The notes under the pieces are model-generated. The model was not told where the DNA came from. It did not search any database and was given only the letters and a program-made list of their open reading frames with translations. The position numbers and the translations under genes are program-made. From an uncultured Gammaproteobacteria bacterium (GTDB taxonomy: Bacteria > Patescibacteriota > Microgenomatia > Levybacterales > UBA12049): 64,000 nucleotides of DNA. Positions 19,358-56,771 of the stretch are shown here, piece after piece. Every line of letters starts with the position of its first letter. Position 1 is the stretch's first letter. Where the stretch lies: assembly GCA_964424775.1 (NCBI GenBank), contig CAYRJZ010000003.1, positions 124,127-188,126 on the forward strand. Direction: 5' to 3'.

Positions 19358-19367
19358 AATACAGATC

Positions 19368-19685: not shown

Positions 19686-19701
19686 GTTCCTGACGAGGAA
19701 C
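19686..19701. promoter_or_regulatory. type-1 leader palindrome GTTCCT-GACG-AGGAAC followed by GAAAAA (upstream of ORF E)
   Basis: Third copy of the TTCCT-N4-AGGAA[C/G]AAAAA element. Confidence 0.45.
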
Positions 19702-19794
19702 GAAAAATATCGATAAATCGAGACTTATCGCTAATCATCAAAAACTCCTGTGCCGGAGCCCAAGAAAGTTCGTGGAATTTGCCGTAGTCGACGG

Positions 19795-20169: not shown

Positions 20170-20240
20170 GGTAATTCTCCTCAGCAGATACAAACCCACG
20201 ACCTGTGGGTTAGCCTTTGACGAAGACCACGAAAAAAGCC
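20170..20240. promoter_or_regulatory. type-2 conserved leader (GGTCTTCGTCAAAGGC ... CCCACAGGTCGTGGG hairpin)
   Basis: Aligned to the other type-2 leaders. Confidence 0.45.
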
Positions 20241-42007: not shown

Positions 42008-42146
42008 AATGTGTCCTTTATTCCTCCATCCGATCATGTAGTTGGCAAGGACATCTATCGGATGTGTGTGATGAATGTATTATACAAAATGTGCTCTCTT
42101 TACGCAACAGCCACAATAATTCATAAATTTCATGTAATATGGAATT

Positions 42147-42668
42147 ATGAAAAAAATAATTACTTCTTTTAAAAAAGCTAATATTACTCTCACAATTTTT
42201 ATTCTGCTCAGTTTGGGGACTCTCGTTGTCGGGACAAAAGTTGTACTAGCGTACCTACCAACTATTCAATATTTTTTGAATATTAATTCGAAGCCTTCAT
42301 CACAAGAAGCGAGAATTTTAGAAAAAATGGGGAAAAAGCTCTCCGAAACTGAAAATAAAAATCTTTTTAATGATGTAAAAAACTCAAGTAGAAATTATCC
42401 CTACCTAGAAATTGCTAAATGTATACCTCGTCCTCGCATTATGCACATTGAAGCTAATACTTACCTTTTGGTTCACAATGCTGATAATCAAATCAGACAT
42501 ATATCTTTTGGCCCTGATAAAAAGTATGCTATTTACCCCGGTGAAACAAAAGGAATTCTTTTGAACTTTTTCCCACATATCCCAGCATATATTGCTTATG
42601 GCTGCGACTCTCATCCAAACGCAGTCGGAATTATTTACGCAACATCTCCCATTTCAATATTACAGTAG
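42147..42668 (+). CDS. membrane-anchored/secreted cupredoxin-like small protein (copy A)
   Basis: N-terminal TM or signal. ANTYLLVHNADNQIRH and YGCDSHPNAVGII align to amicyanin/plastocyanin TVxWxNxDxxxHN and YxCTPHPFMRG. The Cys and both His are retained; the axial Met is replaced. Confidence 0.5.
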   Translation: MKKIITSFKKANITLTIFILLSLGTLVVGTKVVLAYLPTIQYFLNINSKPSSQEARILEKMGKKLSETENKNLFNDVKNSSRNYPYLEIAKCIPRPRIMHIEANTYLLVHNADNQIRHISFGPDKKYAIYPGETKGILLNFFPHIPAYIAYGCDSHPNAVGIIYATSPISILQ

Positions 42669-43835
42669 AGAGCTGCATGAACTATTGAGATAATCTTTAG
42701 GTACTTTTGAACAAAGTTGAGTTAGCTCAGATAGATTTAATACGTAAGCTTTGAACTGGCGTTGAAGCATATCATAACATGCTGCAGGAGCGTCTTCTGG
42801 CAATGAATCACATAACTTAAATGGCAAAACCCTATCCCCCATGGAAAAGAATGAATTTGCAATACTTATGACACACTGACTCTTCCATCCAACTGGCATT
42901 CTGTCACATGAGATATACACCTTCTCCAAATTTCCATTCACCATAGGAACAATTTGACGAGCGACAGAATCAAAACATGTCTCTCTATACTCAATATTCT
43001 TTACCTCTGAGCACATTTTACCGATACCTACCAAATCACCTGGCCTTATATCTTTAAACACCATTTGTGGTTGATTGGACCAGCATGCTTTTCGATATTT
43101 TTCATCAATACGTGAGTCATAACATGGATAGGTAGGATCGTCCATTTTTATCCACTTATCAGGAGATGGCTGACCATTATTGTGAACCGCCCAATTGTTC
43201 TCCATAAATGCGCCGTCATAACAATTATAAGCAGTGAAATCTTTTGATAATGTTGCAACTGTATCGCAGTCTTTCAATGCTTGAGGTAAATTCGCATAGT
43301 CTCGCCACGCCAAAAGACCATGACCAATTGCATGTGAGCATTGAGTGGCTGTTGCCTCACTAATATTTTGACACTCTTTCATTATTGAGTCGAGCTGGTC
43401 CATGCCATGTTCTCCAATGGAACGAATGAGAAACCCATGATAACAAGAAGAAAGGAAATAATCTTTACAATAGATCATCCCTTTTTCTTTAAACTTTTCG
43501 TACAGCCAGTCACCGGCAGTATGATTGAGAAGATGTGCTGTCCCATCAAAAGGAATTCCTGAATGCTGTAACTCCTCTTGTGCCTGGACTGGTCCTACCC
43601 GCTCCATAAGCTGACGATACAGTGTCTCTTTAACCTTCATCACCTGGGTTTCTTTTATGCCTTGAATTTCTTTTGCATATGCAGAACTTACTGGAGTTGA
43701 CTGAGGCTTACTGGATGGGAAAAAAGACTTAACTATAAAACCGATAAGGACAATATTAATGACAATAAGAAGACTTACAGCTGCGAGTCTTTTCCCTCTC
43801 TTTTTTTTTAAAATTGCTGCAAGTGATTTATACAT
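42660..43835 (-). CDS. membrane-anchored Cys-pair repeat protein (8 x C-x7-14-C)
   Basis: N-terminal TM. Eight units, each C-x(7-14)-C followed by an aromatic-Gly/Ala-hydrophobic stretch. Paralogous to the C-terminal domain of 43863..45227. Confidence 0.55.
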   Translation of the reverse strand: MYKSLAAILKKKRGKRLAAVSLLIVINIVLIGFIVKSFFPSSKPQSTPVSSAYAKEIQGIKETQVMKVKETLYRQLMERVGPVQAQEELQHSGIPFDGTAHLLNHTAGDWLYEKFKEKGMIYCKDYFLSSCYHGFLIRSIGEHGMDQLDSIMKECQNISEATATQCSHAIGHGLLAWRDYANLPQALKDCDTVATLSKDFTAYNCYDGAFMENNWAVHNNGQPSPDKWIKMDDPTYPCYDSRIDEKYRKACWSNQPQMVFKDIRPGDLVGIGKMCSEVKNIEYRETCFDSVARQIVPMVNGNLEKVYISCDRMPVGWKSQCVISIANSFFSMGDRVLPFKLCDSLPEDAPAACYDMLQRQFKAYVLNLSELTQLCSKVPKDYLNSSCSSLL

Positions 43836-43862
43836 GTCCTATCCCATGTTATTATAACTCTA

Positions 43863-45227
43863 ATGCGGATTAAAATAAAAAAGCATCTTCTACTCCAAGC
43901 ACTCATCGCTATTACTTTTATAAATGTTCTTGTCATTTCTTTTCTGCTCATTAATCCACTAAAAGAACAAGTTATTGTCATGAATAAGGATGGATTTTCG
44001 CCTGATACACTTCGGGTAGCTCAAAATACCAAAGTCGTTTTTGTCAATAAAGACTCAACAGACAGATGGCCGGCAAGTAATATTCATCCAACACACGATG
44101 AGTACCCTGAATTTGATCCTCAACGACCTTTAAGACCATATGAGGAGTGGGAATTTTATCCTGAAAAAATTGGTACCTGGCAATTTCATGATCATCTCCT
44201 TCCTCATAAAAAAGGAACAATTATCGTTACTTCACCCTCCTTTATTCAGCAATTTTTTCAAAGATTTCAGAACAAACCTGCAAAAAAAAGTCTCGCTAAT
44301 CGTAAAAATGATCTCAATATAAAAAATAATGAACAAAATACACAAACATATAATCAAATGAGAGAAATTGCAAAAAATGAAGGGACTCAAGCTGTCTGGC
44401 AATTCGTCCTCACGACATATGGAGACCAAGATGGTACTCAAGGATCTATTCATGACATTGCTCACTTTGCGGGCAAACTCATTTATGAGAAAGATGGACT
44501 CTCAGGCATTTCTATCTGTACTCCTGTCTTTGCATTTGGCTGTTACCATGGACTCCTTGATACTGCATTTTCCAAAAATCTCGACCAGCTAGATGAAGCT
44601 GAAAAAGCATGCGCTACACTTGGGGGGAATAAATCGGGTCCATACAATGCCTGTGTTCACGGTATAGGTCATGGAGTTGCTAGTTATCATAAATCTAAAG
44701 ACCTTAAGGCTGCTCTGTCTTCCTGTGAAAAAATGGTAAAAGAGGCACAGTACTCGTGTTTCGACGGTGTCTTCATGGAATTTGACCGTGAAGCTCCAAG
44801 TTCATACTATAAAAAAGATGATCCCCTCTCTCCTTGCAACACTCTTGACGTTAAATACCAATATCCGTGTGGTCGCAATCAAGTAAGTGTCATGACCAAC
44901 CGTCACAAATTATCTTTTAACGAAATTGTAAAAGTATGTGCAGCATCTTCACAAAGAGACCTGAAAAATGCATGTTTTGTCGCACTGGGATTTCAAACTG
45001 TCTATCAGTCCGTCGGTGATACAGAAAAAATAAAAAGTATGTGTCTATCACCCAAAAATAATGACTTTGCTAGCCAATGTCTTTCAGCCGCAGCGGGCGA
45101 ACTCATGTTTCAAAATATGGATAACTGGCAAAATAAATATCTTGAGCTTTGTAACGCATTGTCCGGAGAAAACAATCAAAAATGTCTCGATTATACGAAT
45201 ATGATAAGAAAAGAATATAATCTGTAA
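43863..45227 (+). CDS. membrane-anchored fusion protein: N-terminal cupredoxin-like domain + C-terminal Cys-pair repeat domain
   Basis: N-terminal TM. KVVFVNKDSTDRWPASNIH and WQFHDHLLPHKKGTIIV align to the cupredoxin strands, with Asp in place of the ligand Cys. C-terminal 7 x C-x(8-14)-C units homologous to 42660..43835. Confidence 0.6.
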   Translation: MRIKIKKHLLLQALIAITFINVLVISFLLINPLKEQVIVMNKDGFSPDTLRVAQNTKVVFVNKDSTDRWPASNIHPTHDEYPEFDPQRPLRPYEEWEFYPEKIGTWQFHDHLLPHKKGTIIVTSPSFIQQFFQRFQNKPAKKSLANRKNDLNIKNNEQNTQTYNQMREIAKNEGTQAVWQFVLTTYGDQDGTQGSIHDIAHFAGKLIYEKDGLSGISICTPVFAFGCYHGLLDTAFSKNLDQLDEAEKACATLGGNKSGPYNACVHGIGHGVASYHKSKDLKAALSSCEKMVKEAQYSCFDGVFMEFDREAPSSYYKKDDPLSPCNTLDVKYQYPCGRNQVSVMTNRHKLSFNEIVKVCAASSQRDLKNACFVALGFQTVYQSVGDTEKIKSMCLSPKNNDFASQCLSAAAGELMFQNMDNWQNKYLELCNALSGENNQKCLDYTNMIRKEYNL

Positions 45228-45462
45228 TACTACTTGATATATTTTTCTCTTAACTTTACGATTAAGTTATGTCTTCTTCATTTTCTAACCTGATTCATAC
45301 AGAAGTAAAATCACATTTTCTTTTTGAAAGCTTAATTTATACTCAAATAATACTTTAATCCTACAAAATTATTTAACTCTAGGATAACTACGAGTTAGGT
45401 TTTTGCCCAAAATTTTTGATACTTTTGAACTTAATTGTCATTTTTTCTTACATATTTTTACC

Positions 45463-45491
45463 TTGACATTAAAAAACAGCTCTGATATTAT
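45463..45491 (+). promoter_or_regulatory. sigma-70-like promoter TTGACA-N17-TATTAT upstream of the secreted-protein module
   Basis: Perfect -35 (45463..45468), 17-nt spacer, near-consensus -10 (45486..45491), in an AT-rich 300-bp intergenic region. The downstream gene ATG is at 45534. Confidence 0.45.
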
Positions 45492-45533
45492 AAGATGCAA
45501 GGATATTGATATAGTATATCTTTATCATTGTAT

Positions 45534-46631
45534 ATGTCAGAAAGAGACAGTTCATATAATTCTCCTCTTCAGGAAGCTTTTTCCCAACGTCTTTCCCGAC
45601 GAAAATTTATCCGTCAAAGTGCACTCGCCTTAGGTTCTCTAGCTGCGGGAACACTTCTTAGAACACATGAATCATCTGCAGCAAATGCATTTGATGGAGG
45701 TGTAGAAGATGCAGTGCCAATCTACAATCTTGATAGACTTTTTAATGGAGAAATAAAAAGACCTGAAGATTTGAAGCATTTCTTGCAAACTAGGTTAATC
45801 CCACCTGATGCTAGGCTAGCGGAGAGAGCTCACACACCAATTAATGATTTCACCTTAAATCCTGATAAAGAACTTTTTGCAAATCTTGAAGGATATAAAA
45901 GTCCTAAAAATAGACTCGATAAAGCTGTTCTTAAATTTTTTGCATTAGCAGAAGGAGTACGTAGTGATACTGAAACAATGGCTGAAATGGAAATAGAAAC
46001 AGTTGAGGATAGACTTGCTACTCCTGTAGGTGAAAGAGAACCCTATGCAGGTCTTCCAGAAGCAGTGCCAGAGGAAAGAATTCTTGAATTACTTGCAGAT
46101 CCTGATTATCGTATTCCACTCTTTGCATATAAAGAAGGAGAGATTGATCCAAAAAAGTATGAAAAGTTCGATATTGATCCACATGTTGGAATTGAAATTG
46201 AATTGCTTGATGATAGACCAGAGAGAAAACCTATGATTGGATTATACGCTAACTATGGATTTACCCCCACTGTCATTGAACATCAGGTAATTCAGGACGG
46301 GGAACAAGATACAAGATATGGTTTACGCATTGGGTTATTTTCAAATGACTATAAATTTCCAGGTAGTCCAGCTCAATCTCCTCAAGAAGAAGCAGATGGT
46401 TTATATTCAATTTTACTTTACCAATACATGGAATCATCCATATATGTAACCCCTCCACTTATGCAATTTTATAATAGTACAAACGGAGAAAATACATATT
46501 GGGCTAAAAGACAAGAATCTCAGGGTTACGTTTTCTATCCAGATATTATAGAGCAAATTGGTGGTCCTTTAAATGAAAATGGAAGTTTCAATTCAGCTCC
46601 TGTACTTCATATTGATTCACCAAACCTCTAA
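45534..46631 (+). CDS. Tat-signal exported protein of unknown function (module copy 1)
   Basis: Start placed at the ATG (MSERD...). The ORF track uses an upstream TTG. Twin-arginine motif SRRKFIRQSALALGSLAAG. Paralog of 50627..51706. Confidence 0.6.
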   Translation: MSERDSSYNSPLQEAFSQRLSRRKFIRQSALALGSLAAGTLLRTHESSAANAFDGGVEDAVPIYNLDRLFNGEIKRPEDLKHFLQTRLIPPDARLAERAHTPINDFTLNPDKELFANLEGYKSPKNRLDKAVLKFFALAEGVRSDTETMAEMEIETVEDRLATPVGEREPYAGLPEAVPEERILELLADPDYRIPLFAYKEGEIDPKKYEKFDIDPHVGIEIELLDDRPERKPMIGLYANYGFTPTVIEHQVIQDGEQDTRYGLRIGLFSNDYKFPGSPAQSPQEEADGLYSILLYQYMESSIYVTPPLMQFYNSTNGENTYWAKRQESQGYVFYPDIIEQIGGPLNENGSFNSAPVLHIDSPNL

Positions 46632-46676
46632 TTAGCTTCTTGCATACAACTAAAAAAAATATAGAATAGAATAGGT

Positions 46677-47219
46677 ATGCAATTAAAGAGAAAATACCTA
46701 TATTTATTAATTTTTATTCTATTTCTAATTTCAATAATTTTAATTGGATTAGTTTATCTCAAGAACAATACGTTGATACATATTAAAAACTCTGATCAAA
46801 ATATCACTGTATTTTATAAAAAAACAGAATATCTTAATAAATTATTAACTTCTTGGGGGATAGTAACTAATAATAAAAACTCAATTCAAAAAATAAACAT
46901 TACTTTCACTTCCCAACCTCAAGCAGAGTATGTTGTCAAAGATATTGTTACAAAAGAGACATATCAGAGTTTAAGTTGGAATGAAACAGACAATGAATAT
47001 AATATTATAATTAACTTAGAAAGTTCTTATCATAATAAACTATCAGAAAGAGATCTATCATTAAATGCAAATGGATCTGTAGTTAAGGCTTTGTACTATT
47101 TATCACATTCTGAAAATGCAAAATCTCAAAAAATACCCACAGAACTTTTAAAGGTTTATAGTGACTTTACAAAAATCAAAGAACTTCCTTTTACTGCAAT
47201 TTTCAATAAGAGTAAATGA
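46677..47219 (+). CDS. N-terminally membrane-anchored hypothetical protein (module copy 1)
   Basis: TM helix YLYLLIFILFLISIILIGLVYL. Paralog of 51762..52298. Stop overlaps the start of the next gene (ATGA). Confidence 0.55.
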   Translation: MQLKRKYLYLLIFILFLISIILIGLVYLKNNTLIHIKNSDQNITVFYKKTEYLNKLLTSWGIVTNNKNSIQKINITFTSQPQAEYVVKDIVTKETYQSLSWNETDNEYNIIINLESSYHNKLSERDLSLNANGSVVKALYYLSHSENAKSQKIPTELLKVYSDFTKIKELPFTAIFNKSK

Positions 47220-50071
47220 AATTAAATTCACTAATATATAAACTTTCTTTAGTAATATTATTTCTACTATTTTCTTTTGTTTTAAATTCTAAATCAACAT
47301 ATGCTCAGTCCTGTAGTGGTTGGGTTGTATGTTGTTTGGCTTGGCAAGAAGGGGGATGCTTCGTAAATGGGACTGGAACTGACATAGCTAATCCTCCTGT
47401 CCCATGTAATCCTCTTCAAAATCCTGGAAATTGTACGTGCAATGAGGGATCATGTTACTCTGCAACGAGTACCTATTGCGATGCCTCCTGCGGAGCTGGG
47501 GCATGTGATGCCAGTATTCCAGGGCATGTAAGTAATTGTTCCTGGTCTGGAGGATATGGCTCAAATCCTGGATACGGTTCAAATCCATCATATTCTTATC
47601 CATACCCATATCCTTACCCCTATCCATATCCTTATCCCTATCCCTATCCTGCGCCTGCTGATTTTCATGTTCAGTCTTTCTATACTGCAGATGTAGATGG
47701 CAATAGGAGTTATAACTTCGCTGAAGGGGAAAATATTTACTGGTATGCTCGAATTCGCAATGATGGCGAACTTTATCCAGAATCATCTAATGATCGAATT
47801 TATACTAACTTCTATCAAAACCAACCAAATCCAATGGGCATCACTTCCAATCACACCTCTATTTATATCGACACGAACGACAACTGGGCTCCTGAAACAA
47901 ATAGAACATTTGCTTCCTATCCTGACGGAGAAAATAGAGGTTCATATGAAGGAGCATTTAGCTTTGAGCGAATTGGCGGCCAAACGAATAATGGACTTCC
48001 CCTCTATGCGAGAATCTTTGTAGATCACGACAATAGAGTTGATGAGCCATCAGGACATAATACCGATGAAAATCAAGCTACTTTCCGCTATACCGTTGGA
48101 GATACACCCGATCTCCAAATAACAGATTTCCATCTTCGAGATAGTAATGGTGAAGAGACAAATCGCTTTGCCCCAGGGCAAAGAATATACACCAAGCTCA
48201 CCTACTACAATTATGGTGGAACAACTGCTTTTAACAGAGACCCAGATGATCCATATATTTATACAGCTTTTTATAGAAGTCGGGAAAACCCTGTTGCAGA
48301 AGACACTGCTTCTAGTGCCAACATGTATATTCGTGGAAATGAACTTGATCCAAATGACGGTGACACCTTTTATTGCAAACCTGATCCAGGAAATAAATGT
48401 AGTCGGTTTACTGCTGATGATTACTGGACAGTAGATGAGGCAGGAAGATATACTGCTCGCGCATATGTTAACTACAATGATGATGTTGTTGAAGGGCCGA
48501 AAAGTAACAATCAAGCAACGTATGAATATTCCGTAGGCCGAGTAATATCAGGTTACGTATACAGTGATACAAACGAGAGTGGAACGAAAGCAACAAGTGA
48601 ACCAGGACTAGCCAACATTCGAGTAACTCTCTACAGGAAAGCTGCAAATGGACAATACACAACTCGTATAGGGTCTACACGAACTGATAATGATGGATTT
48701 TATGACTTTGATGCGCTTGAGGATAATGATTATCGTGTATTTATAGACACTCCAGACCAACCAGCAAATTATGCATTTACTACACCAACAGAGTATGAAG
48801 TAACGTTACCTCCAAATACCAGACGTGATTTTGGACTTCTCGAAAATACCTTTACGATTTCAGGGAATATATTCTTAGATCAAAATACCAATCGTGTCAA
48901 AGATGGAGAAGAAGCAAATGCGACAAATATAAGTAGCACGAGCATCACGATTGATGGTTCAAATACCGGTGTTACTCTTAATAGTGACGGAAGTTATATT
49001 ATCCAAAATGTAAGTTATGGTACACACACTATTCGATTTAGCCCACTTCCATCTGGTTATTTTATTACCCATCCTCGCTCAACTACTCCTCCCTCATATA
49101 CGGTAACAGTTGGTAATTCTTGTGCACCCTCCCCACTCAATCCAGGTGGAACATGTAGCGATAGAAATATCATCAATCTTAATTTTGGAATAAAAGAAGG
49201 AGAGCCATGGATCCAGGCATATGGACTTGATATCCGATTTGATGGAGGAATAAATAATCCTCTTCCTGCTTCACCTAATGCAGCTTGTGGAGGTGCGTAT
49301 ACCATTATTGCCGGAAGTGGTAGCACACCTGGGGTTGGATATACGGGTAGTGTTAGTCCAGACTTTGGACTTGGTGCAATTTCAGCATTAAATAGAATTG
49401 TTGGAGGAACAACATACCCCGAAGTATTTACCCCTCTCTCAACAAATGTAATTCGAACATCATATGGGTATTTAAAGAGTACAATGAGGCAGTCTAATAT
49501 TTCATCCTCTCCTCTTCCAAATGTCTGTTCTGGTGGGATATCAGACTGTAGCCTGACCGGCAGTCTTCCAAGTGGTATTTATGAAGCATCAACGAGCGCA
49601 ACACTTAATGGATTTACCGTTGGAGCTGACCGGGATATAATTCTTATCATCAATGGCGACATTCTTATAAGAGGTGCTATTGATGTTCCAACAACTTCCA
49701 CACTTACCGTTATATCTTCTGGAAGTATTCGTGTTGCAAGCACTGTGGGAACAACAGCCTCTTGCCCTGCTCCCAGCAATGGAACGACAGCAAATGGAAC
49801 ACTTGAAGGATTTTATAGCGCAGATCTCAACTTCACACTTGATACCGGTGCTGACTGTTCAGCTAGTACATCAGATCTCCAGCTCAATATGCAAGGGAGT
49901 GTTGTAGTGAATGCGGCAAAAAGAGGTGGAGACTTTATTAACAATCGCACACTTTGTACCGACAATACTCAATATCCATCCTTTACCATTCGAGAAAGAC
50001 CTGACTTTATCTTGAATGCACCAGATATTATCAAAACTCAAAGCTTTATTTGGCAGGAGGTCGCACCATAA
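47216..50071 (+). CDS. large secreted surface protein: N-terminal Cys-rich domain, YP-repeat linker, CnaB/SdrD-B-like (carboxypeptidase-regulatory-like) domains (module copy 1)
   Basis: Signal peptide. Cys-rich QSCSGWVVCCLAWQEGGCFVNGTG...CTCNEGSCY...CDASCGAGAC. 9 x YP repeats. Segments SGYVYSDTNESG...IRVTLYRK...NDGFYDFDALEDNDYRVFID typical of the Cna-B/SdrD-B fold. Conserved C-terminus IIKTQSFIWQEVAP. Confidence 0.7.
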   Translation: MKLNSLIYKLSLVILFLLFSFVLNSKSTYAQSCSGWVVCCLAWQEGGCFVNGTGTDIANPPVPCNPLQNPGNCTCNEGSCYSATSTYCDASCGAGACDASIPGHVSNCSWSGGYGSNPGYGSNPSYSYPYPYPYPYPYPYPYPYPAPADFHVQSFYTADVDGNRSYNFAEGENIYWYARIRNDGELYPESSNDRIYTNFYQNQPNPMGITSNHTSIYIDTNDNWAPETNRTFASYPDGENRGSYEGAFSFERIGGQTNNGLPLYARIFVDHDNRVDEPSGHNTDENQATFRYTVGDTPDLQITDFHLRDSNGEETNRFAPGQRIYTKLTYYNYGGTTAFNRDPDDPYIYTAFYRSRENPVAEDTASSANMYIRGNELDPNDGDTFYCKPDPGNKCSRFTADDYWTVDEAGRYTARAYVNYNDDVVEGPKSNNQATYEYSVGRVISGYVYSDTNESGTKATSEPGLANIRVTLYRKAANGQYTTRIGSTRTDNDGFYDFDALEDNDYRVFIDTPDQPANYAFTTPTEYEVTLPPNTRRDFGLLENTFTISGNIFLDQNTNRVKDGEEANATNISSTSITIDGSNTGVTLNSDGSYIIQNVSYGTHTIRFSPLPSGYFITHPRSTTPPSYTVTVGNSCAPSPLNPGGTCSDRNIINLNFGIKEGEPWIQAYGLDIRFDGGINNPLPASPNAACGGAYTIIAGSGSTPGVGYTGSVSPDFGLGAISALNRIVGGTTYPEVFTPLSTNVIRTSYGYLKSTMRQSNISSSPLPNVCSGGISDCSLTGSLPSGIYEASTSATLNGFTVGADRDIILIINGDILIRGAIDVPTTSTLTVISSGSIRVASTVGTTASCPAPSNGTTANGTLEGFYSADLNFTLDTGADCSASTSDLQLNMQGSVVVNAAKRGGDFINNRTLCTDNTQYPSFTIRERPDFILNAPDIIKTQSFIWQEVAP
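47597..47650 (+). repeat. 9 x (TAT CCN) Tyr-Pro dipeptide repeat linker
   Basis: tat cca tac cca tat cct tac ccc ... seen directly. The paralog carries a poly-Pro linker at the equivalent place. Confidence 0.7.
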
Positions 50072-50077
50072 AGATGT

Positions 50078-50578
50078 ATGAAGACAGTAACTCCACTTTT
50101 AACTGCTACTCGCTCTCACTTGTTATTAAGTAGTTTTTTTCTCCTCCTAATTGCTTTATTCATTGCCACTTTTTTTTCTTATCGTAGTTTTAGTCCAACT
50201 ATAAATAAATTTCTGGGACTCCATAAAGATCAACAAATCGTAGAACATATTAATAAATTCACATCACTCAAAACACCCGAACAATACCAAGAATATAATA
50301 AGCAAACAGAAAAAATTGCTGTTTCAGCGCCTTATCTGGATATTACATCCTGCTCACCTTCACCTCAAATTCTCAAAGTTAAGGCAAATACTCTACTTGT
50401 TGTTAAAAATAGTTCAACAAAAGAACATCTGATTACATTAAATGAAAAGAGTGCATATTCTATTGGACCACATAAAAACACCTCAATTCTTCTTAATACA
50501 TACCCTGTTGTTCCAGGATCGTATTTGTATCATTGTGACCAAAATTTAAATGTTGGAATGATATTTGTGCAACTGTAA
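50078..50578 (+). CDS. membrane-anchored/secreted cupredoxin-like small protein (copy B)
   Basis: Homologous to 42147..42668. YLYHCDQNLNVGMIFV keeps the Cys and the axial Met, but the second His is Asn. Confidence 0.5.
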   Translation: MKTVTPLLTATRSHLLLSSFFLLLIALFIATFFSYRSFSPTINKFLGLHKDQQIVEHINKFTSLKTPEQYQEYNKQTEKIAVSAPYLDITSCSPSPQILKVKANTLLVVKNSSTKEHLITLNEKSAYSIGPHKNTSILLNTYPVVPGSYLYHCDQNLNVGMIFVQL

Positions 50579-50626
50579 CAGATATCATTGACAGAGAAAA
50601 ACCACAGCAGTATAGTGCAAACAAGT

Positions 50627-51706
50627 ATGTCAGAAAGAGAAACACCGAGGAGAATTTCATCAGCAATTAGCGAAGGGAAAATGACGAGACGTCGATTTCT
50701 CCAAGGTGCACTTGTAGGCGCTTCCATGCTTCTGCCTGATACAATGCTACCCCACACTACCACTGCTGAAGACACACCCACTGATGAACAAGTTCTCAAT
50801 CTGGATCTGTTATTTAAAGGCGAAATCAATCGACCTGAAGATATGAAATATTTTCTGCAGACTCGACTCCTTCCTCCGGATGAAAGACTTGCAAAAAGAA
50901 GTCAAACTCCCATAACAGGATTGACATTAAATCCAGATAAAGAGATTTTTGAGAATTTGGAAGGATATAAAAGTCCTAAAAATAGACTCGATAAAGCAGT
51001 CTTAAAAGCTATTGCTCTTCTTGAAAGTGTGCGAGGTGACACAGAGGCAATGACAGATATGAAAATTGAGACTGTTAATGATAGGCTTGCCAGTCCAGTT
51101 GGTCAACGTGAAACAACGGGTGCTTATCTACCCGAACCAGTACCAGAAGAAAGAATTCTTGAACTGATGAGTGATCCGGAGTATCGTCTTCCCATCATGG
51201 GATATCCTGAGGGAGAATTTGATCCTGATAAATACAAACGATTTGATATTGATCCTCATCTTGGAATTGAAATTGAAATCCTAGATGATAGACCAGAACA
51301 CAAACCGAAAGTTGGCATTTTTGGTTCGTATGGCTTTACCCCAACTGTTGTAGAACATGCTGTCAGACATCAGAACAAAACAGAACAAAGATATGGACTA
51401 AGAATAGGTCTTTTCGCCAATGACACCAGATTTATTGGAAGTGATTTTTTTGACCCCCAGGGAGAAGCTGATGCACTCTACTCAATGCTATTAAATCAAT
51501 ATATTGAAAGAATATCATTCATTACTCCTCCTCTCATGACATATTACAGTAGTGTTAACGAGCAAAATCCTTACTGGACAAAATTAATGCAGTCTCCAGG
51601 ATTTGTCTATTATCCTGAGATTGCTACACTAACAAATGGCCCACACAGTGCAGACAATAGACATACAACAGCTCCTGTACTCCATATTGTCTCTCCTACC
51701 TTATAA
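50627..51706 (+). CDS. Tat-signal exported protein of unknown function (module copy 2)
   Basis: Start at the ATG (MSERETPRR...), with the same tatgtcagaaagaga context as copy 1. Twin-arginine motif TRRRFLQGALVGASM. About 55-60% identity to copy 1 by eye. Confidence 0.6.
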   Translation: MSERETPRRISSAISEGKMTRRRFLQGALVGASMLLPDTMLPHTTTAEDTPTDEQVLNLDLLFKGEINRPEDMKYFLQTRLLPPDERLAKRSQTPITGLTLNPDKEIFENLEGYKSPKNRLDKAVLKAIALLESVRGDTEAMTDMKIETVNDRLASPVGQRETTGAYLPEPVPEERILELMSDPEYRLPIMGYPEGEFDPDKYKRFDIDPHLGIEIEILDDRPEHKPKVGIFGSYGFTPTVVEHAVRHQNKTEQRYGLRIGLFANDTRFIGSDFFDPQGEADALYSMLLNQYIERISFITPPLMTYYSSVNEQNPYWTKLMQSPGFVYYPEIATLTNGPHSADNRHTTAPVLHIVSPTL

Positions 51707-51761
51707 ATAGTGTCGCTCATCATTGACACCTGCGAAAAGAAAAAAATAGAATGAATAAGAT

Positions 51762-52298
51762 ATGCTTATTAAGAAAAAATATATTTATCTTCTTCTTTCC
51801 TTTTTCTTATTAAGTATTTCTTTGATCTTAGGAATATTCATTTCAAGAAAAAATACATTTATTCAACTTCATGATAAAGATGTTAACTTCTCTTTTTCGT
51901 ATACTGAAACTGATCTTTTTAAAAGTTATCTTCAGCAATGGAAGATAAGAGAAAATGGAAAGAGTTCTCCTACACGAGTAAGTATTACATTTACGACTTC
52001 GCCACAAGCCAGTTATGTTATGCGTGATTATGTCACAAAAGAAATGATTCAAAGTTATTCATGGAAAAAAAATAAGAATTCTATCATCATTGTTATTCAT
52101 CTTGATCCCAAATATCACACAAAACTAAATGAACGTGATCTTTCATTAAGTGCAAACGCAGCAGTACTCAAAGCTCTCTATTTTCTCTCTCACCCAGAAC
52201 AAACAAAAGTGGATGTCATTCCCAAAGAACTTATGGATGTCTATTCAAAATTTCAAAAAGAAAAAATAATCCCAATACAAGTTGGAAAAAATAATTAA
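51762..52298 (+). CDS. N-terminally membrane-anchored hypothetical protein (module copy 2)
   Basis: Paralog of 46677..47219. Confidence 0.55.
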   Translation: MLIKKKYIYLLLSFFLLSISLILGIFISRKNTFIQLHDKDVNFSFSYTETDLFKSYLQQWKIRENGKSSPTRVSITFTTSPQASYVMRDYVTKEMIQSYSWKKNKNSIIIVIHLDPKYHTKLNERDLSLSANAAVLKALYFLSHPEQTKVDVIPKELMDVYSKFQKEKIIPIQVGKNN

Positions 52299-52299
52299 T

Positions 52300-55110
52300 A
52301 TGAAGAGATACCTATCATTTATTTCTCTTTTTTCTATTATCATTTTTATTCCTCTAATCCTTTCCCCTTCTCGCATTTCTGCACAAACATGCAATGGATA
52401 TGTCGTCTGTTGTCTCGCTTGGATGGAGGGGGGCTGTTTTGTCAATGGAACGGGAACTTCAATTTCCAATCCACCTATATCATGCAATCCAGCTATTCGT
52501 TCTGACTGTACCTGCAATTCGGGATCTTGTTATTCAGCAACGACGACTTATTGTGATGCAGCTTGTGGTGTTGGAAATTGTGATGGAAATATTCCAGGCC
52601 ATATTAGTGCATGTTACTGGTCGGGTGGTGGTGATACGGGAGGTGGAGATCCACCTCCACCTCCACCTCCACCTCCACCACCACCTCCGCCACCACCTCC
52701 ACCTTCTGATTTGGTGGTAAATGATTTTTATGTCACAGATGCAAACGGCGGAAAAAGCTACAACTTTGCTGAAGGTGAAAGAATTTACTGGTATACGAGA
52801 GTAACGAATGATGGAACTTATTACTACCAGACAGAACCAGGACGTGTTGAGATGAATCTTTATCAAAATCAGCAAAGTATTCCGGGTGTTACTCCGGATA
52901 ACACGTCTATATACATTTCTACTGACGGAACGACCTGGGAGCCTGGGTTGACTCGAGCATTTGGCTCGTATGCAGATGGTACCAATAGACAAGATTTTGA
53001 AAATGCATATAGTTTTACAAGGACTGGTGGCCAAACAAATGAAGGCAAACCTCTCTTCGCAAGACTCGTTGTTGATCCGGCTGACGAGATCCCATCATAT
53101 AGAGATGAAACAAGAAATAACAATCATGCTGTCTTCAGATACACAGTTGGAGATACTCCAGATTTAACTATCACTGACTTTGAACTGAGAGATAGTGATG
53201 GAAATCCCAAAACAAAATTTAATCCAGGACAACGAATTTATCCCAAATTTACCTATTACAACTATGGAGGAACTACAGCCTTCTCTCGCGATATAAATGA
53301 TCCACACATTTATTCTGTAATTTATAGTGACAAAGAAAATTCAGTTGCTATTGGCACACAAAGTGATGTCGATATATCAATTCAAGCACCAGAACTTGAT
53401 AAAGATGACGGAGATGCATTCTGGTGTGTCCCCTCCCCTTCCAATAAATGTGAGATGTTTCGTGATAAAACATATTGGCAAATGAATACACCTGGACGAT
53501 ATGTTGCTCGTGTTTTTGTTAACTATGATAACAATGTCGTTGAAGGAGGTAATCGCACCAACAACCAAATGACTATTGAGTATTCTGTAGGAAGAATTAT
53601 ATCTGGATATGTTTATCTTGATGCAAATGAAAGTGGTGGGAATAAAGGATCAACTGAGGATGGAATTTCTGGAGTTCGGGTAACACTCTATCGAAAAGCT
53701 AGTGATGGAACATACAGCCGACGAATTGGATCAACTCGTACTAATAATGAAGGTTTTTATGAATTTGATGCACTTGAAGATAATGATTATAGAGTATTTA
53801 TTGACGACCCCGACCGCCCTGAAAATTATACGTTCACTACAGCAACAGAATACCGTGTTACCGTTCCACCAAATATAAGGCGCGACTTTGGACTTCTGGA
53901 AGATAATTACACAATCTCTGGGAATACTTTTATTGACGCGAATGGAAATAAAATTAAAGAGACAGAAGAAGAACTTTTCACTGATGCTCCATCCGGAAGT
54001 ATTCAAGTTGATGGATCCACTTCAAATGTCTTGCTACAAAATGGGGTTTATACAATCTCCAAACTTTCTCGTGGACAACATATTGTCCGCTTCACGGGAC
54101 TTCCTCAAGGATATTCTATGACACATCCGCTCGTTACTATTCCACCATCATTTACCGTCACAGTTGGAAGCAGTTGTACCCCATCATCCTCAACGCCTGG
54201 TGGTACATGCACTGATGCTGGTAATATCGACAATCTCAATTTCGGATTTAAACAAGGAGAGCCCTGGATTCAAATCTATGGCCTTGATATTCGATTTGAT
54301 AACGCAATTTCAAATCCAGTTCCTTCATCACCTAATGCAACTTGTGGTGGCGCATATACTCTTGCAGTTGGTAATACAGGAACTCATGGTGTACTGTATA
54401 CAGGAAATGCTCCTTCTTCTAGTGGACTTGGAAATATATCAGAAAATAATTGGGTAGTTGGCGGAACACAATTTCCTGAACTTTTCTCTCCTCTTTCAAA
54501 TAACATTATCAAGACGTCTTATGGATATGTTCAATCAGTTCTTAAACAATCTAATATTACTCCAACAGATCTCACATCAATATGCGAAAATCTCGCTGAC
54601 TGTTCACTCCCCACAACATTAGAAAATGGAGTTTATCATGCAGAAAAAGATCTTCTGCTTCGCGCTTTTACTGCATCACCAAATAGAGATTTAGTGCTTC
54701 TCATCAAGGGTGATCTCCTTATAACAGGACCAATTAATATTCCTACTTCATCAACTTTCACTGTTATTACATCAGGAAGTATCAGAGTTGATAGTACAGT
54801 TGGAAGTACAGCTTCTTGTCCGGCTCCTGAGGCAGGAAGAGTTGAAGGATTTTACAGTGCAGACTCCAACTTTACTCTCGAGTCAGCGTCAGATTGTACC
54901 CTCAACTCCCCTGATCTTCAATTGAATATGGAAGGAAGTATTGTTGTAAATGCAGGTAAAAAAGGTGGCAATTTTATTAACAAAAGAGATTTATGCACGA
55001 GTAATTCAAGCTATCCTGTATTCACTATAAAAGGAAGACCAGATTTCGTCCTGAACGCTCCGGATATTATCAAAACTCAAAGTTTTATTTGGCAAGAAGT
55101 CGCTCCATAG
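52300..55110 (+). CDS. large secreted surface protein, paralog of 47216..50071 with poly-Pro linker (module copy 2)
   Basis: Start moved to MKRYLSF (ATG at 52300, directly after the upstream stop), giving a signal peptide parallel to copy 1. Same Cys-rich N-domain, CnaB-like domains and C-terminal IIKTQSFIWQEVAP. Confidence 0.7.
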   Translation: MKRYLSFISLFSIIIFIPLILSPSRISAQTCNGYVVCCLAWMEGGCFVNGTGTSISNPPISCNPAIRSDCTCNSGSCYSATTTYCDAACGVGNCDGNIPGHISACYWSGGGDTGGGDPPPPPPPPPPPPPPPPPPSDLVVNDFYVTDANGGKSYNFAEGERIYWYTRVTNDGTYYYQTEPGRVEMNLYQNQQSIPGVTPDNTSIYISTDGTTWEPGLTRAFGSYADGTNRQDFENAYSFTRTGGQTNEGKPLFARLVVDPADEIPSYRDETRNNNHAVFRYTVGDTPDLTITDFELRDSDGNPKTKFNPGQRIYPKFTYYNYGGTTAFSRDINDPHIYSVIYSDKENSVAIGTQSDVDISIQAPELDKDDGDAFWCVPSPSNKCEMFRDKTYWQMNTPGRYVARVFVNYDNNVVEGGNRTNNQMTIEYSVGRIISGYVYLDANESGGNKGSTEDGISGVRVTLYRKASDGTYSRRIGSTRTNNEGFYEFDALEDNDYRVFIDDPDRPENYTFTTATEYRVTVPPNIRRDFGLLEDNYTISGNTFIDANGNKIKETEEELFTDAPSGSIQVDGSTSNVLLQNGVYTISKLSRGQHIVRFTGLPQGYSMTHPLVTIPPSFTVTVGSSCTPSSSTPGGTCTDAGNIDNLNFGFKQGEPWIQIYGLDIRFDNAISNPVPSSPNATCGGAYTLAVGNTGTHGVLYTGNAPSSSGLGNISENNWVVGGTQFPELFSPLSNNIIKTSYGYVQSVLKQSNITPTDLTSICENLADCSLPTTLENGVYHAEKDLLLRAFTASPNRDLVLLIKGDLLITGPINIPTSSTFTVITSGSIRVDSTVGSTASCPAPEAGRVEGFYSADSNFTLESASDCTLNSPDLQLNMEGSIVVNAGKKGGNFINKRDLCTSNSSYPVFTIKGRPDFVLNAPDIIKTQSFIWQEVAP
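52651..52704 (+). repeat. poly-proline tract (18 consecutive Pro codons)
   Basis: cca cct cca cct ... seen directly. Occupies the position of the YP repeat in the paralog. Confidence 0.7.
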
Positions 55111-55423
55111 CAACATTCTGAACCAAATTTAAGTTATCGAGATTTGATGAAACATAAATTGCTTCCTCTGGTGTAGCTTCACCTTTTCGAGCATTTTCAA
55201 CACTTGCATCAAAAAGAACTTGACTAAAAGGTAATTTTTTTATTTCCTGAAGGACTTCCTTTCTTCTTTTCTTCCTCTCTCTTCTCCATATCTTCTGTGG
55301 CACTTCTAATCTTCTCTCTCCATTGAGAGCCCAACCTGTTTTTTCCTGATTCATTGAGTGGTGTGCAAGGGGGCTCTGTGAACGCATCACTATTCTTCTC
55401 TCATGATCTATTCTGCTGCTCAT
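55085..55423 (-). CDS. hypothetical basic protein downstream of glyA
   Basis: ORF begins 28 bp after the glyA stop on the same strand. Its 3' end overlaps the convergent giant gene by 26 bp. No motif recognised. Confidence 0.3.
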   Translation of the reverse strand: MSSRIDHERRIVMRSQSPLAHHSMNQEKTGWALNGERRLEVPQKIWRRERKKRRKEVLQEIKKLPFSQVLFDASVENARKGEATPEEAIYVSSNLDNLNLVQNVAMERLLAK

Positions 55424-55451: not shown

Positions 55452-56771
55452 TTATGGTAAGGGGTATTTTGAAGTAAGTGCTTTTACTTCTTTTGCAATT
55501 GCAAGAAGCTTTTTATTCTTCCAGATATCTTTTTTGTATTGTTTCCAGAAAGCAGATCTTGCTTCTTTTTCTACTGGGAATTGATGTACCTTTACCTCTT
55601 CGACAACTTCATTTATCCAGTTGGCAATCTTGACCATTTCTCGCTCCTTCATTCCTCGAGTTGTAATCGCAGGTGTACCAAGTCGAATACCTGATGGATA
55701 AAAAGGAGGCATCGTATCACGAGGTACAGAATTTTTGTTAACAACAATATTCGCAACTTCAAGGGCAAGAGCAACAACAGCACCATTAGTATTTTTATTT
55801 CGGAGATCAAGAAGAAGAAGATGGTTGTCTGTTCCTCCACTTATTATTTCAAATCCATGCGCCTGTAACTTTTCAGCTAATTTTTTCGCATTCTTGACGA
55901 CCTGTTCCCCATATTTTTTAAACTTTGCAGTAGATGCTTCTTTGAGGGCAACAGCAATAGCTGCTGTTTGATTATCATGTGGACCACCTTGGAGTCCAGG
56001 AAATACTGCTTTATCAATTTTATCTGCAAGATCAGGATCTTTTTTAAGTCCTTTTTCAGTAACGAAGAGTATTGCGCCTCTTGGACCACGAAGTGTTTTG
56101 TGAGTTGTTGTCATAAAGGTGTGAGCGTAAGGAGCAGGACTTGGATGGACACCCGCTGCAACAAGTCCTGAAATATGACTAATATCCGCGTGAAGATATG
56201 CACCAACTTTATCCGCAATTTTTGCAAACTTTTTAAAATCAATGACTCGAGAGTATGCAGTTGTTCCACAAATAATGAGCTTTGGCTTTTCTTTTTCTGC
56301 CAACTTCTCAATTGCATCATAATCTAATAACCCGTCGTCCCCTAATTCATACTGAACAGATTTAAAATATTTTCCGGTAATGGAGACTTCAGCTCCATGT
56401 GTAAGATGTCCTCCGAAAGCAAGAGAAAATCCCATAACTTTATCACCAGGATTCATAAGCGCTAAATAAACAGCTAAATTTGCAGGACTCCCAGAATATG
56501 GTTGAACATTCACATGAGGTACGTGGAATAATTCTTTTGCGCGTTCTTCAGCTAAAAGTTCGACACTATCAATATATGCATTGCCTTGATAGTATCTTTT
56601 CTTTGCATATCCTTCAGAATATTTATTATTGAGGACATTTCCTAATGCTTCAAGAACTGCTTGTGATGTGTAATTTTCAGAGGGAATCATTTCGAGGACT
56701 TCTTTTTGACGTTTTTCCTCGCTCTTAATAAGTTCATGAATTTGGGGATCAGTAATTTTGAGATGTTTCAT
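55452..56771 (-). CDS. glyA: serine hydroxymethyltransferase
   Basis: PLP-lysine region TTTHKTLRGPRGA and the SHMT N-terminus. Confidence 0.93.
   Translation of the reverse strand: MKHLKITDPQIHELIKSEEKRQKEVLEMIPSENYTSQAVLEALGNVLNNKYSEGYAKKRYYQGNAYIDSVELLAEERAKELFHVPHVNVQPYSGSPANLAVYLALMNPGDKVMGFSLAFGGHLTHGAEVSITGKYFKSVQYELGDDGLLDYDAIEKLAEKEKPKLIICGTTAYSRVIDFKKFAKIADKVGAYLHADISHISGLVAAGVHPSPAPYAHTFMTTTHKTLRGPRGAILFVTEKGLKKDPDLADKIDKAVFPGLQGGPHDNQTAAIAVALKEASTAKFKKYGEQVVKNAKKLAEKLQAHGFEIISGGTDNHLLLLDLRNKNTNGAVVALALEVANIVVNKNSVPRDTMPPFYPSGIRLGTPAITTRGMKEREMVKIANWINEVVEEVKVHQFPVEKEARSAFWKQYKKDIWKNKKLLAIAKEVKALTSKYPLP

What the first reader, a model, noticed from the sequence alone, without database searches (positions are those of the whole stretch)
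45463..55110. Tandemly duplicated four-gene secreted module: cupredoxin-like protein, Tat-signal protein, membrane-anchored protein, ~940-aa Cys-rich/CnaB-like surface giant
Genes 45534..50578 and 50627..55110 are two diverged copies of the same module. The order is cupredoxin-like small protein, Tat-exported ~360-aa protein, N-anchored ~180-aa protein, and a ~940-aa secreted giant. Copy 2 uses the cupredoxin gene at 50078 as its first member; copy 1 uses 42147. Copy 1 has two Cys-pair-repeat genes inserted between its cupredoxin and Tat genes. Gene boundaries are tightly coupled: ATGA overlap at 47216, and stop then ATG at 52296..52302. Both Tat genes share the start context tatgtcagaaagaga and an S/TRRxF twin-arginine motif. 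Tat export implies a cofactor-loaded or prefolded cargo. Tat export, degenerate cupredoxins and Cys-rich extracellular domains together suggest an uncharacterised extracytoplasmic metal or redox system, or a surface-attachment system. A strong sigma-70-like promoter (TTGACA-N17-TATTAT) heads copy 1.
Basis: partly seen in the sequence, partly recalled or inferred. Interest (0 to 1): 0.8.

Follow-up and report, generated by a model that had tools for sequence, protein, structure and literature searches.

The report
Duplicated Levybacteria surface-fibre operon, Tat partner
Two ancient, diverged copies of a gene set found only in ultra-small Levybacteria-type bacteria encode a Tat-exported protein of unknown fold, a small membrane-anchored protein and a ~940-residue secreted protein with an Ig-like stalk and a beta-solenoid end; it most likely builds a cell-surface attachment fibre, not a metal or redox system.

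Summary
B (Tat), C (anchor) and D (giant) occur twice in tandem at 56%, 45% and 57% protein identity; the small A proteins are 32% identical. Synonymous sites are saturated, so the duplication is old.

The promoter, ATGA overlap, shared start context and RR motifs are all present. One correction: one of the two "inserted" Cys-repeat genes is on the minus strand.

- **B** is a tiny family: 11 hits in 1.84 billion representatives. All full-length homologues carry Tat signals. It has no conserved Cys, His or acidic residues, and its confident model matches no solved structure.

The families co-occur in other Levybacteria genomes, and Tat-signal genes are enriched upstream of D (p about 1e-6). A sister strain has one copy, in which the mature B domain, C and D's N-terminal module are replaced as one cassette behind the same Tat signal.

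Best reading: a lineage-specific surface attachment fibre with a swappable base cassette. The metal/redox reading is poorly supported for B-C-D.

The parts
42147..42668 (+). A1: N-anchored small cupredoxin-like protein (173 aa)
   Evidence: 32% identical to A2. The 7-member family profile's best PDB hit is 4hcf cupredoxin_1, E 0.0086. Only C92, P96, N111, C153 and G161 are invariant, so there is no type-1 Cu ligand set. dN/dS vs L011 is 0.14.
42660..43835 (-). X1: N-anchored Cys/His-rich repeat protein (391 aa, 16 Cys), on the minus strand
   Evidence: The family has at least 265 members, all Patescibacteria hypotheticals with no Pfam match. H101, H105, H133, H168, H172, E212 and 16 Cys are invariant. 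92% identical to its L011 orthologue.
43863..45227 (+). X2: Cupredoxin_1 domain (aa 34-122) fused to an X-type Cys/His-rich domain (454 aa)
   Evidence: Pfam PF13473 scores 30.4 bits, above the 27-bit cut-off. H75, H78, H109 and H111 are invariant, and there is no Cys ligand.
45463..45491 (+). Promoter-like site TTGACA-N17-(TG)TATTAT heading B1-C1-D1
   Evidence: 11/12 match. Conserved exactly in L011, with equivalent sites upstream of the Tat-protein gene in L003, L008 and L017.
45534..46631 (+). B1: Tat-signal protein (365 aa). Signal is about aa 1-52 (SRRKFI, h-region, ANA site); the mature domain is Cys-free.
46677..47219 (+). C1: N-terminally membrane-anchored protein (180 aa, no Cys), translationally coupled to D1 (ATGA)
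   Evidence: C-family members sit directly upstream of D in L005, L008, L012, L014 and L038.
47216..50071 (+). D1: secreted giant (951 aa). Layout: Sec signal aa 1-30; 12-Cys module 31-110; GY/PY linker 111-147; two CARDB-like domains 148-440; two SdrD-B domains about 441-650; conserved beta-solenoid C-terminal domain 650-951, ending EVAP.
50078..50578 (+). A2: N-anchored cupredoxin-like protein (166 aa)
   Evidence: Pfam Cupredoxin_1 E 0.001, 19.5 bits, below the cut-off. Family alignment.
50588..50616 (+). Promoter-like site TTGACA-N17-TATAGT, 11 nt upstream of the B2 ATG
   Evidence: 11/12 match.
50627..51706 (+). B2: Tat-signal protein (359 aa; TRRRFL)
   Evidence: 56% identical to B1. Weak TAT_signal hits.
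51762..52298 (+). C2: N-anchored protein (178 aa), with an 11/12 promoter-like site at 51723-51752
52300..55110 (+). D2: secreted giant (936 aa), same architecture as D1 but with a poly-Pro linker

Best explanation
This is a Levybacteria-specific (Patescibacteria) cell-surface apparatus, present here as two ancient paralogous copies of a three-gene operon B-C-D. Separately transcribed accessory genes (A, X) lie upstream.

Proposed mechanism:
1. D is exported unfolded by Sec and cleaved at A|Q. It is oxidised outside the cell: 22 Cys, 12 of them in the N-terminal module.
2. D has no wall- or membrane-anchoring signal of its own. It is held at the membrane by the co-translated, N-terminally anchored C protein and by B, which arrives pre-folded through Tat.
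3. D's low-complexity Pro/Tyr linker crosses the envelope.
4. The CARDB-like and SdrD-B (CnaB-type) domains form a stalk. The stalk presents the conserved C-terminal beta-solenoid, which binds a repetitive surface, most plausibly the envelope of a host or partner cell, or a polymer.
5. The mature B domain, C and D's N-terminal module form a co-adapted cassette that is exchanged as a unit between strains. The Tat signal, stalk and solenoid are kept.

Shown:
- gene content, duplication and purifying selection;
- Tat-type signals conserved in homologues;
- domain composition and fold similarity;
- conserved gene order and promoter;
- the cassette replacement.

Inferred:
- the physical B-C-D complex;
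- the orientation (N-terminus proximal);
- the adhesive function.
For: Architecture of D:
- SdrD_B scores 60.9 and 55.3 bits; there are SpaA and CARDB-like hits.
- A Sec signal is present, with no LPXTG or C-terminal TM segment.

Linkage:
- The B-C-D order recurs in L008/L009/L010 and in L038.
- An N-anchored small ORF lies directly upstream of D, on the same strand, in 15 of 24 loci, often overlapping it. Background is 29% (p 7e-4).
- Tat-like ORFs are 11 of 72 in the three genes upstream of D versus 5 of 418 elsewhere (p 8e-7).
- The TTGACA-N17 promoter is conserved in front of the Tat gene in five loci.

Cassette:
- Against L011 (84-89% nt identity), only window 45612-47596 is unalignable. 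That stretch is the mature B1 domain, C1 and the D1 N-terminal module.
- The Tat signal stays 64-67% identical while the mature domain is unrelated.

Real genes: dN/dS vs L011 is 0.04-0.14.

Tat system: Tat components are reported in Microgenomatia (PMC9166423).
Against: - No experiment, expression data or complex prediction exists. B and C have no known fold or family, so their roles are inferred from position only.
- The C family also occurs with D proteins whose N-terminal modules differ (L005, L012, L014). C-to-Dn specificity is therefore not strict.
- The conserved end of a surface protein is often the anchoring end, so the orientation could be reversed.
- The C-terminal domain model is only partly confident: pLDDT 61 overall, with residues 1-96 poor.
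- TatA/TatC could not be looked for in this genome.
- The B family is absent from most D loci.
Confidence: 0.5

Rival explanations
1. Extracytoplasmic metal or redox system. Cupredoxin-like A and X proteins, together with a Tat-exported cofactor-carrying B, would handle copper or iron, or transfer electrons at the cell surface. D would be a scaffold.
For: - X2 has a bona fide Cupredoxin_1 domain (30.4 bits) with four invariant His.
- The X family has invariant His/Glu motifs.
- In L008/L009 an FTR1 permease gene and a flavodoxin gene lie just upstream of the B-like gene.
- Tat is the classic route for cofactor proteins.
Against: - The B family has no conserved Cys, His, Asp or Glu. Its invariant positions are Gly, Pro and Arg.
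- B has no redox or cofactor fold match.
- The A family lacks the type-1 Cu ligands.
- No FTR1, P19, EfeB or cytochrome gene is in the window cluster.
- The X family is Patescibacteria-wide and not specific to D loci.
- Tat-like signals in these genomes sit on cofactor-less hydrolases.
Confidence: 0.12
2. Polymorphic effector cassette. The B-position protein would be a Tat-exported effector or enzyme aimed at a host or competitor envelope. The C-position protein would be its cognate membrane-anchored partner or immunity factor. D would be the conserved attachment or delivery scaffold. Strains would swap effector/partner pairs.
For: - There is a cassette swap of non-homologous Tat cargo plus anchor behind the same signal.
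- In L017 the Tat protein in the B position has a weak M23 peptidase hit, E 0.0047.
- Two different cassettes exist in one genome.
Against: - B lacks HExxH or any conserved catalytic residue.
- C faces outward, so it could not protect the cytoplasm.
- There are no hits in defence or phage libraries.
- The swapped segment also includes D's N-terminal module. That fits a docking interface better than a toxin.
Confidence: 0.15
3. Type IV pilus or competence accessory. D's beta-solenoid would be a ComZ- or PilX-like tip module working with the pilus machinery of these bacteria.
For: - Weak DUF7305 hits in 4 of 10 members, best E 1.2e-4.
- Type IV pili are central to cultivated Patescibacteria (PMC12206443 abstract).
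Against: - D has a Sec-type signal cleaved at A|Q, not a class III prepilin signal.
- No pilin, PilB, PilC or PilM genes are adjacent in the window or related loci.
- The DUF3494 matches score higher than ComZ.
Confidence: 0.05
4. Ice-binding or antifreeze surface protein, on the basis of the DUF3494-like fold.
Against: - Pfam Ice_binding matches only 1 of 10 members, at E 0.017.
- The homologues come from groundwater, soil and digester MAGs (titles).
- From general knowledge, the fold also occurs in proteins of organisms from non-icy habitats.
Confidence: 0.03

Closest known systems
Gram-positive MSCRAMM / Sdr-type adhesins (SdrC/D, Cna)
   Same: Secreted modular surface proteins with tandem SdrD-B / CnaB-type Ig-like stalk domains (Pfam PF17210 above threshold), a low-complexity linker and a distinct terminal binding domain.
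   Different: - No LPXTG sorting signal or wall anchor.
- The NCBIfam SdrC/SdrD models are hit only over one repeat, far below cut-off.
- The conserved domain is C-terminal and the variable Cys-rich module is N-terminal.
- Encoded with a dedicated anchor protein and a Tat-exported partner.
DUF3494 (IBP-1 fold) beta-solenoid domains, e.g. Colwellia IBP 3wp9 and the Shewanella Ig-domain IBP 6bg8
   Different: - Sequence membership is not met: PF11999 hits 1 of 10 members at E 0.017.
- 11-14% identity.
- The first 96 residues of the domain are not confidently modelled.
- No link to cold habitats.
ComZ, the competence-pilus tip pilin of Thermus thermophilus (6qvi)
   Different: D has no pilin N-terminal helix or prepilin signal, and no pilus genes lie nearby.
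Tat-exported partners of cupredoxin-containing uptake systems (EfeUOB, FtrABCD)
   Same: Co-occurrence of a Tat-signal protein with Cupredoxin_1-type proteins. FTR1 lies next to the B-like gene in L008/L009.
   Different: - B is not a DyP peroxidase or a P19 protein and has no cofactor residues.
- No FTR1 permease is in the window cluster.
- A lacks copper ligands.
Polymorphic surface or toxin cassettes (variable modules behind conserved delivery parts)
   Same: Non-homologous cassettes are exchanged between strains at domain boundaries, while the flanking conserved parts are kept.
   Different: The variable part spans three proteins, including the N-terminus of the giant. No toxin or immunity domains are recognisable.

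Membership tests
Tat (twin-arginine) substrates | S/T-R-R-x-F-L-K-type motif in the n-region | tested here: met
   B1 has SRRKFI and B2 has TRRRFL. TIGR01409 scores 18.1 bits against a 16.7-bit cut-off for B1. All eight full-length homologues carry RR motifs.
Tat (twin-arginine) substrates | Weakly hydrophobic h-region, basic c-region and an AxA-type cleavage site, conserved in homologues | tested here: met
   By inspection: B1 ...ALALGSLAAGTLLRTHESSAANA|F; P0014 ...LLRSERVSA|E; P0015 ...GLPRESAHA|Q. No dedicated predictor (TatP/SignalP) was available.
Tat (twin-arginine) substrates | TatA and TatC encoded in the same genome | not testable with these tools
   Only 64 kb of a contig of at least 189 kb is available, and no multi-TM TatC-like ORF is in the window. 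TatA/TatC are reported in Microgenomatia (PMC9166423).
Tat (twin-arginine) substrates | Cofactor-binding cargo (common but not obligatory) | tested here: not met
   No conserved Cys, His, Asp or Glu in the 10-sequence family alignment. No cofactor fold match.
Cupredoxin (Pfam Cupredoxin_1, PF13473) | Sequence match above the gathering score | tested here: inconclusive
   A1 has no hit. A2 scores 19.5 bits, below the 27-bit cut-off. The A-family profile's best PDB hit is 4hcf cupredoxin_1 at E 0.0086. X2 passes, at 30.4 bits.
Cupredoxin (type-1 copper site) | His-Cys-His-Met/Gln ligand set | tested here: not met
   In the A family only C153 of the set is invariant, and a second invariant Cys (C92) suggests a disulfide. 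The X2 domain has four invariant His and no Cys.
SdrD B-like / CnaB-type domain (PF17210) | Pfam match above the gathering score | tested here: met
   D1 scores 60.9 bits and D2 55.3 bits against a 29.7-bit cut-off, with two stretches each.
MSCRAMM adhesins | C-terminal LPXTG sortase signal with TM segment and charged tail | tested here: not met
   No LPxTG-like motif; the proteins end ...FIWQEVAP. The NCBIfam SdrC/SdrD models score 32-40 bits against cut-offs of 1700-2500.
DUF3494 / ice-binding-like (PF11999) | Beta-solenoid with flanking helix (fold level) | tested here: met
DUF3494 / ice-binding-like (PF11999) | Sequence match to the family model | tested here: not met
   1 of 10 members at E 0.017. 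DUF7305 hits 4 of 10 members, best E 1.2e-4, below its cut-off for the window copy, the only one whose score was shown.
EfeUOB / FtrABCD iron uptake | FTR1-family permease plus EfeB (DyP) or P19 in the cluster | tested here: not met
   None of the ten cluster proteins hits these families. FTR1 is seen only next to the B-like gene in L008/L009.
Type IV pilins (ComZ/PilX-like) | Class III prepilin signal and hydrophobic N-terminal helix | tested here: not met
   The D N-termini are Sec-type with an A|Q site in the window copies and several relatives.

The most novel reading that the evidence does not exclude
A previously undescribed three-part surface machine of Levybacteria. A conserved Tat 'address' delivers interchangeable, non-homologous folded cargo. 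The cargo, a matching membrane anchor and the matching Cys-knot N-terminus of a giant fibre form a strain-specific cassette that determines partner or host specificity. B would then define a new protein fold, and Tat would serve here as an assembly route for a surface organelle rather than for cofactor enzymes.
Probability: 0.25. Interest if true: 0.7.

Novelty: new variant of a known kind. Interest (0 to 1): 0.5.

Why it matters
How ultra-small Patescibacteria recognise and hold on to partner cells is largely unknown outside type IV pili in Saccharibacteria (PMC12206443 abstract).

This locus gives Levybacteria a concrete candidate: a lineage-restricted, strongly constrained surface fibre whose base cassette differs between sister strains and between the two copies in one genome.

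It also supplies:
- a small protein family (B) with a confident predicted structure that matches nothing solved;
- an example of Tat signals being reused on unrelated cargo at one genomic position.

All of this is testable by co-folding, metaproteomics and heterologous export assays.

Tried and rejected
- **B, C, A, X and D against Pfam, NCBIfam, PHROGs and PADLOC.** Only Cupredoxin_1 (X2), the SdrD_B group (D) and Tat-signal models hit.
- **B against 5.8 billion proteins.** Only itself and its paralogue were found. The exhaustive profile search gave 11 hits.
- **PDB profile searches for B, X and C.** Nothing.
- **Metagenome scan for B relatives.** None confirmed.
- **Exact look-ups of window proteins P0001 and P0024.** Not on record, so the source assembly could not be named.
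- **hhalign of the B and C profiles against alternative cassette proteins.** Only the Tat signal aligns. I therefore treat them as non-homologous or undetectably diverged.
- **Alignment of D N-terminal modules of the window and L038.** Not significant, so a strict B-to-Dn type correlation could not be extended.
- **Recent tandem duplication.** Rejected because synonymous sites are saturated.
- **rRNA as the explanation for the GC-rich island.** Rejected; no Rfam hit.
- **A C1-proximal promoter (TTGCAT).** Rejected; it fails the -35 criterion.


Full report
**1. What is there**

Between rpsB (41099-42037, minus strand) and glyA/SHMT (55452-56771, minus strand) the window carries ten ORFs:

| Gene | Coordinates | Strand | Size | Description |
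|---|---|---|---|---|
| A1 | 42147-42668 | + | 173 aa | N-anchored, cupredoxin-like |
| X1 | 42660-43835 | − | 391 aa | N-anchored, 16 Cys |
| X2 | 43863-45227 | + | 454 aa | Cupredoxin_1 domain plus X-type domain |
| B1 | 45534-46631 | + | 365 aa | Tat-signal protein |
| C1 | 46677-47219 | + | 180 aa | N-anchored |
| D1 | 47216-50071 | + | 951 aa | secreted giant |
| A2 | 50078-50578 | + | 166 aa | N-anchored, cupredoxin-like |
| B2 | 50627-51706 | + | 359 aa | Tat-signal protein |
| C2 | 51762-52298 | + | 178 aa | N-anchored |
| D2 | 52300-55110 | + | 936 aa | secreted giant |

- Paralogue identities are 56% (B), 45% (C), 57% (D) and 32% (A), with E-values from 2e-19 to 0. The duplication is far beyond chance.
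- The ATGA overlap, the TAA-T-ATG junction and the 15-mer TATGTCAGAAAGAGA at both B starts are present. The 15-mer occurs only twice in 64 kb.
- The promoter-like site at 45463-45491 is an 11/12 match with a TG extension. Two more 11/12 sites precede B2 and C2.
- GC content of the region (0.34-0.41) matches the genome background.

**2. Age and constraint**

- Between the two copies, synonymous sites are saturated (dS 1.7-2.8). Nominal dN/dS is 0.13-0.33 for B, C and D.
- Against the sister-strain contig L011, orthologues show dN/dS 0.04-0.14 (A1, X1, X2 and D1 from residue 149).
- These are therefore functional genes and an old duplication, or an old acquisition of a second diverged copy.

**3. 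The individual proteins**

*D*
- It has a Sec signal with an A|Q site, then 12 Cys within about 75 residues.
- A GY/PY linker (D1) or poly-Pro linker (D2) follows.
- Next come about 290 residues with weak CARDB / Wzt_C-type hits, then two SdrD-B (CnaB-type) domains well above the Pfam threshold.
- The last 300 residues are the family-defining part: 57% mean column identity over ten sequences, with an invariant ...E-V-A-P terminus.
- At sequence level only sub-threshold DUF7305 and Ice_binding hits appear.
- There is no LPXTG motif and no C-terminal TM segment.

*B*
- It has a canonical Tat signal; TIGR01409 is above its cut-off for B1.
- The word-indexed search of 5.8 billion proteins found only B1 and B2.
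- An exhaustive HMM search of 1.84 billion representatives found 11 proteins.
- All eight full-length homologues carry an RR motif, an h-region and an AxA-type site.
- The closest is MBI4097312.1 from Candidatus Levybacteria.
- Nothing but Gly, Pro, Arg and hydrophobic positions are conserved. B1 and B2 contain no Cys at all.

*C*
- An N-terminal TM anchor is followed by about 150 residues. It has no Cys and no family, structure or PDB match.

*A*
- A TM anchor is followed by a small beta domain.
- The family profile's best PDB hit is a Cupredoxin_1 protein, 4hcf, at E 0.0086.
- Only two Cys, one Pro, one Asn and one Gly are invariant. It is therefore not a type-1 copper site.

*X*
- This is a large, Patescibacteria-wide family of hypothetical proteins, with at least 265 members.
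- It has 16 invariant Cys and invariant His/Glu motifs: H..AH, CYHG, C-x-H-G-x-G-H-G and FME.
- X2's cupredoxin domain passes Pfam's threshold and has four invariant His but no Cys ligand.

**4. Co-occurrence elsewhere**

D homologues were found by protein search and by scanning species-representative genomes with the C-terminal domain. That scan gave 25 loci, almost all Levybacteria/Patescibacteria MAGs; several are mislabelled 'uncultured Gammaproteobacteria'. I called ORFs in all loci and searched them with iterated HMMs for each family.

- **A with D:** the A family lies within 10 kb of D in L003, L004, L011, L012 and L014.
- **X with D:** the X family does so in L004, L006, L011, L014 and L022.
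- **C with D:** the C family sits directly upstream of D in L005, L008-10, L012, L014 and L038.
- **B-C-D order:** it recurs in L008/L009/L010 (B 47%, C 32%, D N-module 55% identical) and in L038 (two B-like genes, a C-like gene, then the start of D).
- **N-anchored upstream gene:** across 24 D genes with upstream sequence, the adjacent upstream gene is a same-strand N-anchored protein in 15. It often overlaps D by 1-53 nt.
- **Tat-like ORFs:** they are 11 of 72 among the three upstream genes versus 5 of 418 elsewhere (Fisher p 8e-7; 1e-5 after dropping close relatives).
- **Promoter:** a TTGACA-N17-TAnnnT site precedes the Tat-protein gene in L011, L003, L008 and L017 as well.

The refutation test 'the families do not co-occur outside this genome' therefore fails.

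**5. Cassette exchange**

L011 is a sister strain (84-89% nt identity). It has a single module, A-X1(−)-X2-B'-C'-D, followed by the same 112-aa ORF, SHMT, DHFR and so on. BLASTN comparison gives:

| Window segment | Content | Status in L011 |
|---|---|---|
| 42026-45611 | A1, X1, X2, promoter, Tat signal | aligns (84%) |
| 45612-47596 | mature B1, C1, D1 N-terminal module up to the PY linker | no detectable similarity |
| 47597-50070 | rest of D1 | aligns (83%) |
| 50071-54708 | A2, B2, C2, most of D2 | absent |
| from about 55000 | downstream of D2 | resumes at 89% |

- L011's D is D1-like until its last ~90 nt and D2-like thereafter. This is the signature of one recombination between the conserved 3' ends of two D genes, either a deletion in L011 or an insertion here.
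- B' (P0022) keeps the B1 Tat signal (64-67% identity over about 52 aa). Its mature domain is unrelated by BLAST and hhalign.
- C' is unrelated to the C family but is related to the C-position protein of L003.
- The exchanged unit thus ends at the signal-peptide cleavage region of B and at the linker of D.

**6. Interpretation**

- D looks like a modular surface fibre: an Ig-like stalk plus a solenoid, but with no anchor of its own.
- C is a membrane-anchored protein that is translationally coupled to D in many genomes.
- B-position proteins are Tat-addressed and share D's promoter.
- The co-replacement of mature B, C and D's N-terminal module suggests that these three parts work together at the membrane-proximal end. 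The conserved solenoid would then be the distal binding element. This orientation is inferred, not shown.
- The metal/redox idea finds support only in X2/X, not in A, B, C or D.
- 'Tat implies cofactor' is weakened by Tat-like signals on a GH10 enzyme and a C39-like peptidase in related loci.
- Tat components are reported for Microgenomatia (PMC9166423). They could not be checked in this genome.

**7. Novelty**

- I found no paper on this family.
- The domains of D are known kinds.
- The B family and its predicted fold, the Tat-cargo/anchor/giant operon organisation and its cassette polymorphism are not described, to my knowledge.
- I file it as a new variant of the modular surface-adhesin theme, with moderate interest. 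Function is inferred and the organisms are uncultivated.

Noticed in passing
window 16400-20300: A GC-rich island of about 4 kb (GC 0.46-0.62 against about 0.37 background) lies between an uppS-like gene and cysS. It has no Rfam hit even at E<=0.01. It contains several small minus-strand ORFs (102, 118, 201, 173, 92 and 167 aa). It looks like horizontally acquired DNA.
   Followed up: partly
window 1-64000: No tRNA, tmRNA or any Rfam family at gathering score in the whole 64 kb.
   Followed up: no
window 55085-55423 (minus strand): A 112-aa ORF overlaps the 3' end of D2 by 26 nt. A same-size ORF sits at the same position after D in L011 and L013, and a 104-aa ORF in L001. It has no family hit.
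   Followed up: partly
window 42660-45227; alignment A5: The X family is a large Patescibacteria-wide family of anchored or secreted proteins (at least 265 members) with no Pfam model. It has 16 invariant Cys and invariant His/Glu motifs (H..AH, CYHG, CxHGxGHG, FME) that look like a metal site.
   Followed up: partly
window 43863-44270 (X2 N-terminal domain): This Cupredoxin_1 domain has four invariant His (WPASxxHPxH ... HDHLxP) and no Cys ligand. It may be a non-classical copper or zinc site.
   Followed up: partly
window 45492-45515 vs L011 about 3467-3490: The first 24 nt downstream of the -10 element of the B1 promoter (AAGATGCAAGGATATTGATATAGT) are identical in the sister strain, while the surrounding DNA is about 84% identical. 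This may be a leader or operator element.
   Followed up: no
L008 8230-9514; L009 4745-6029: An FTR1-family permease gene and a flavodoxin gene lie immediately upstream of the B-like gene in two Levybacteria assemblies.
   Followed up: no
L004 4301-5503; L031 435-1895; L017 5458-6246: Tat-like signals occur on a GH10 glycoside hydrolase, a Peptidase_C39_2 protein and a weak M23-like protein in related genomes. This suggests Tat is used for cofactor-less secreted enzymes in this lineage.
   Followed up: partly
L013, L014, L016, L020, L025, L028, L030, L035: MAGs titled 'uncultured Gammaproteobacteria bacterium' carry D-type loci otherwise seen only in Levybacteria/Patescibacteria. At least some also share Patescibacteria-like neighbours (for example L014). 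The labels are probably generic or wrong.
   Followed up: no
window 42147-50071 vs 55452-56771, compared with L011: dS of A1, X1, X2 and D1 against L011 (0.87-1.18) is about twice that of the adjacent SHMT gene (0.49). This hints at recombination with more distant lineages in the surface-protein region.
   Followed up: no
L006 4454-8689: Downstream of a shorter D-type gene lie secreted proteins with cohesin (E 1.6e-6) and dockerin (E 1.4e-5) domains and a VWA + SdrD_B protein. This may be a cohesin-dockerin surface assembly in a Patescibacteria contig.
   Followed up: no
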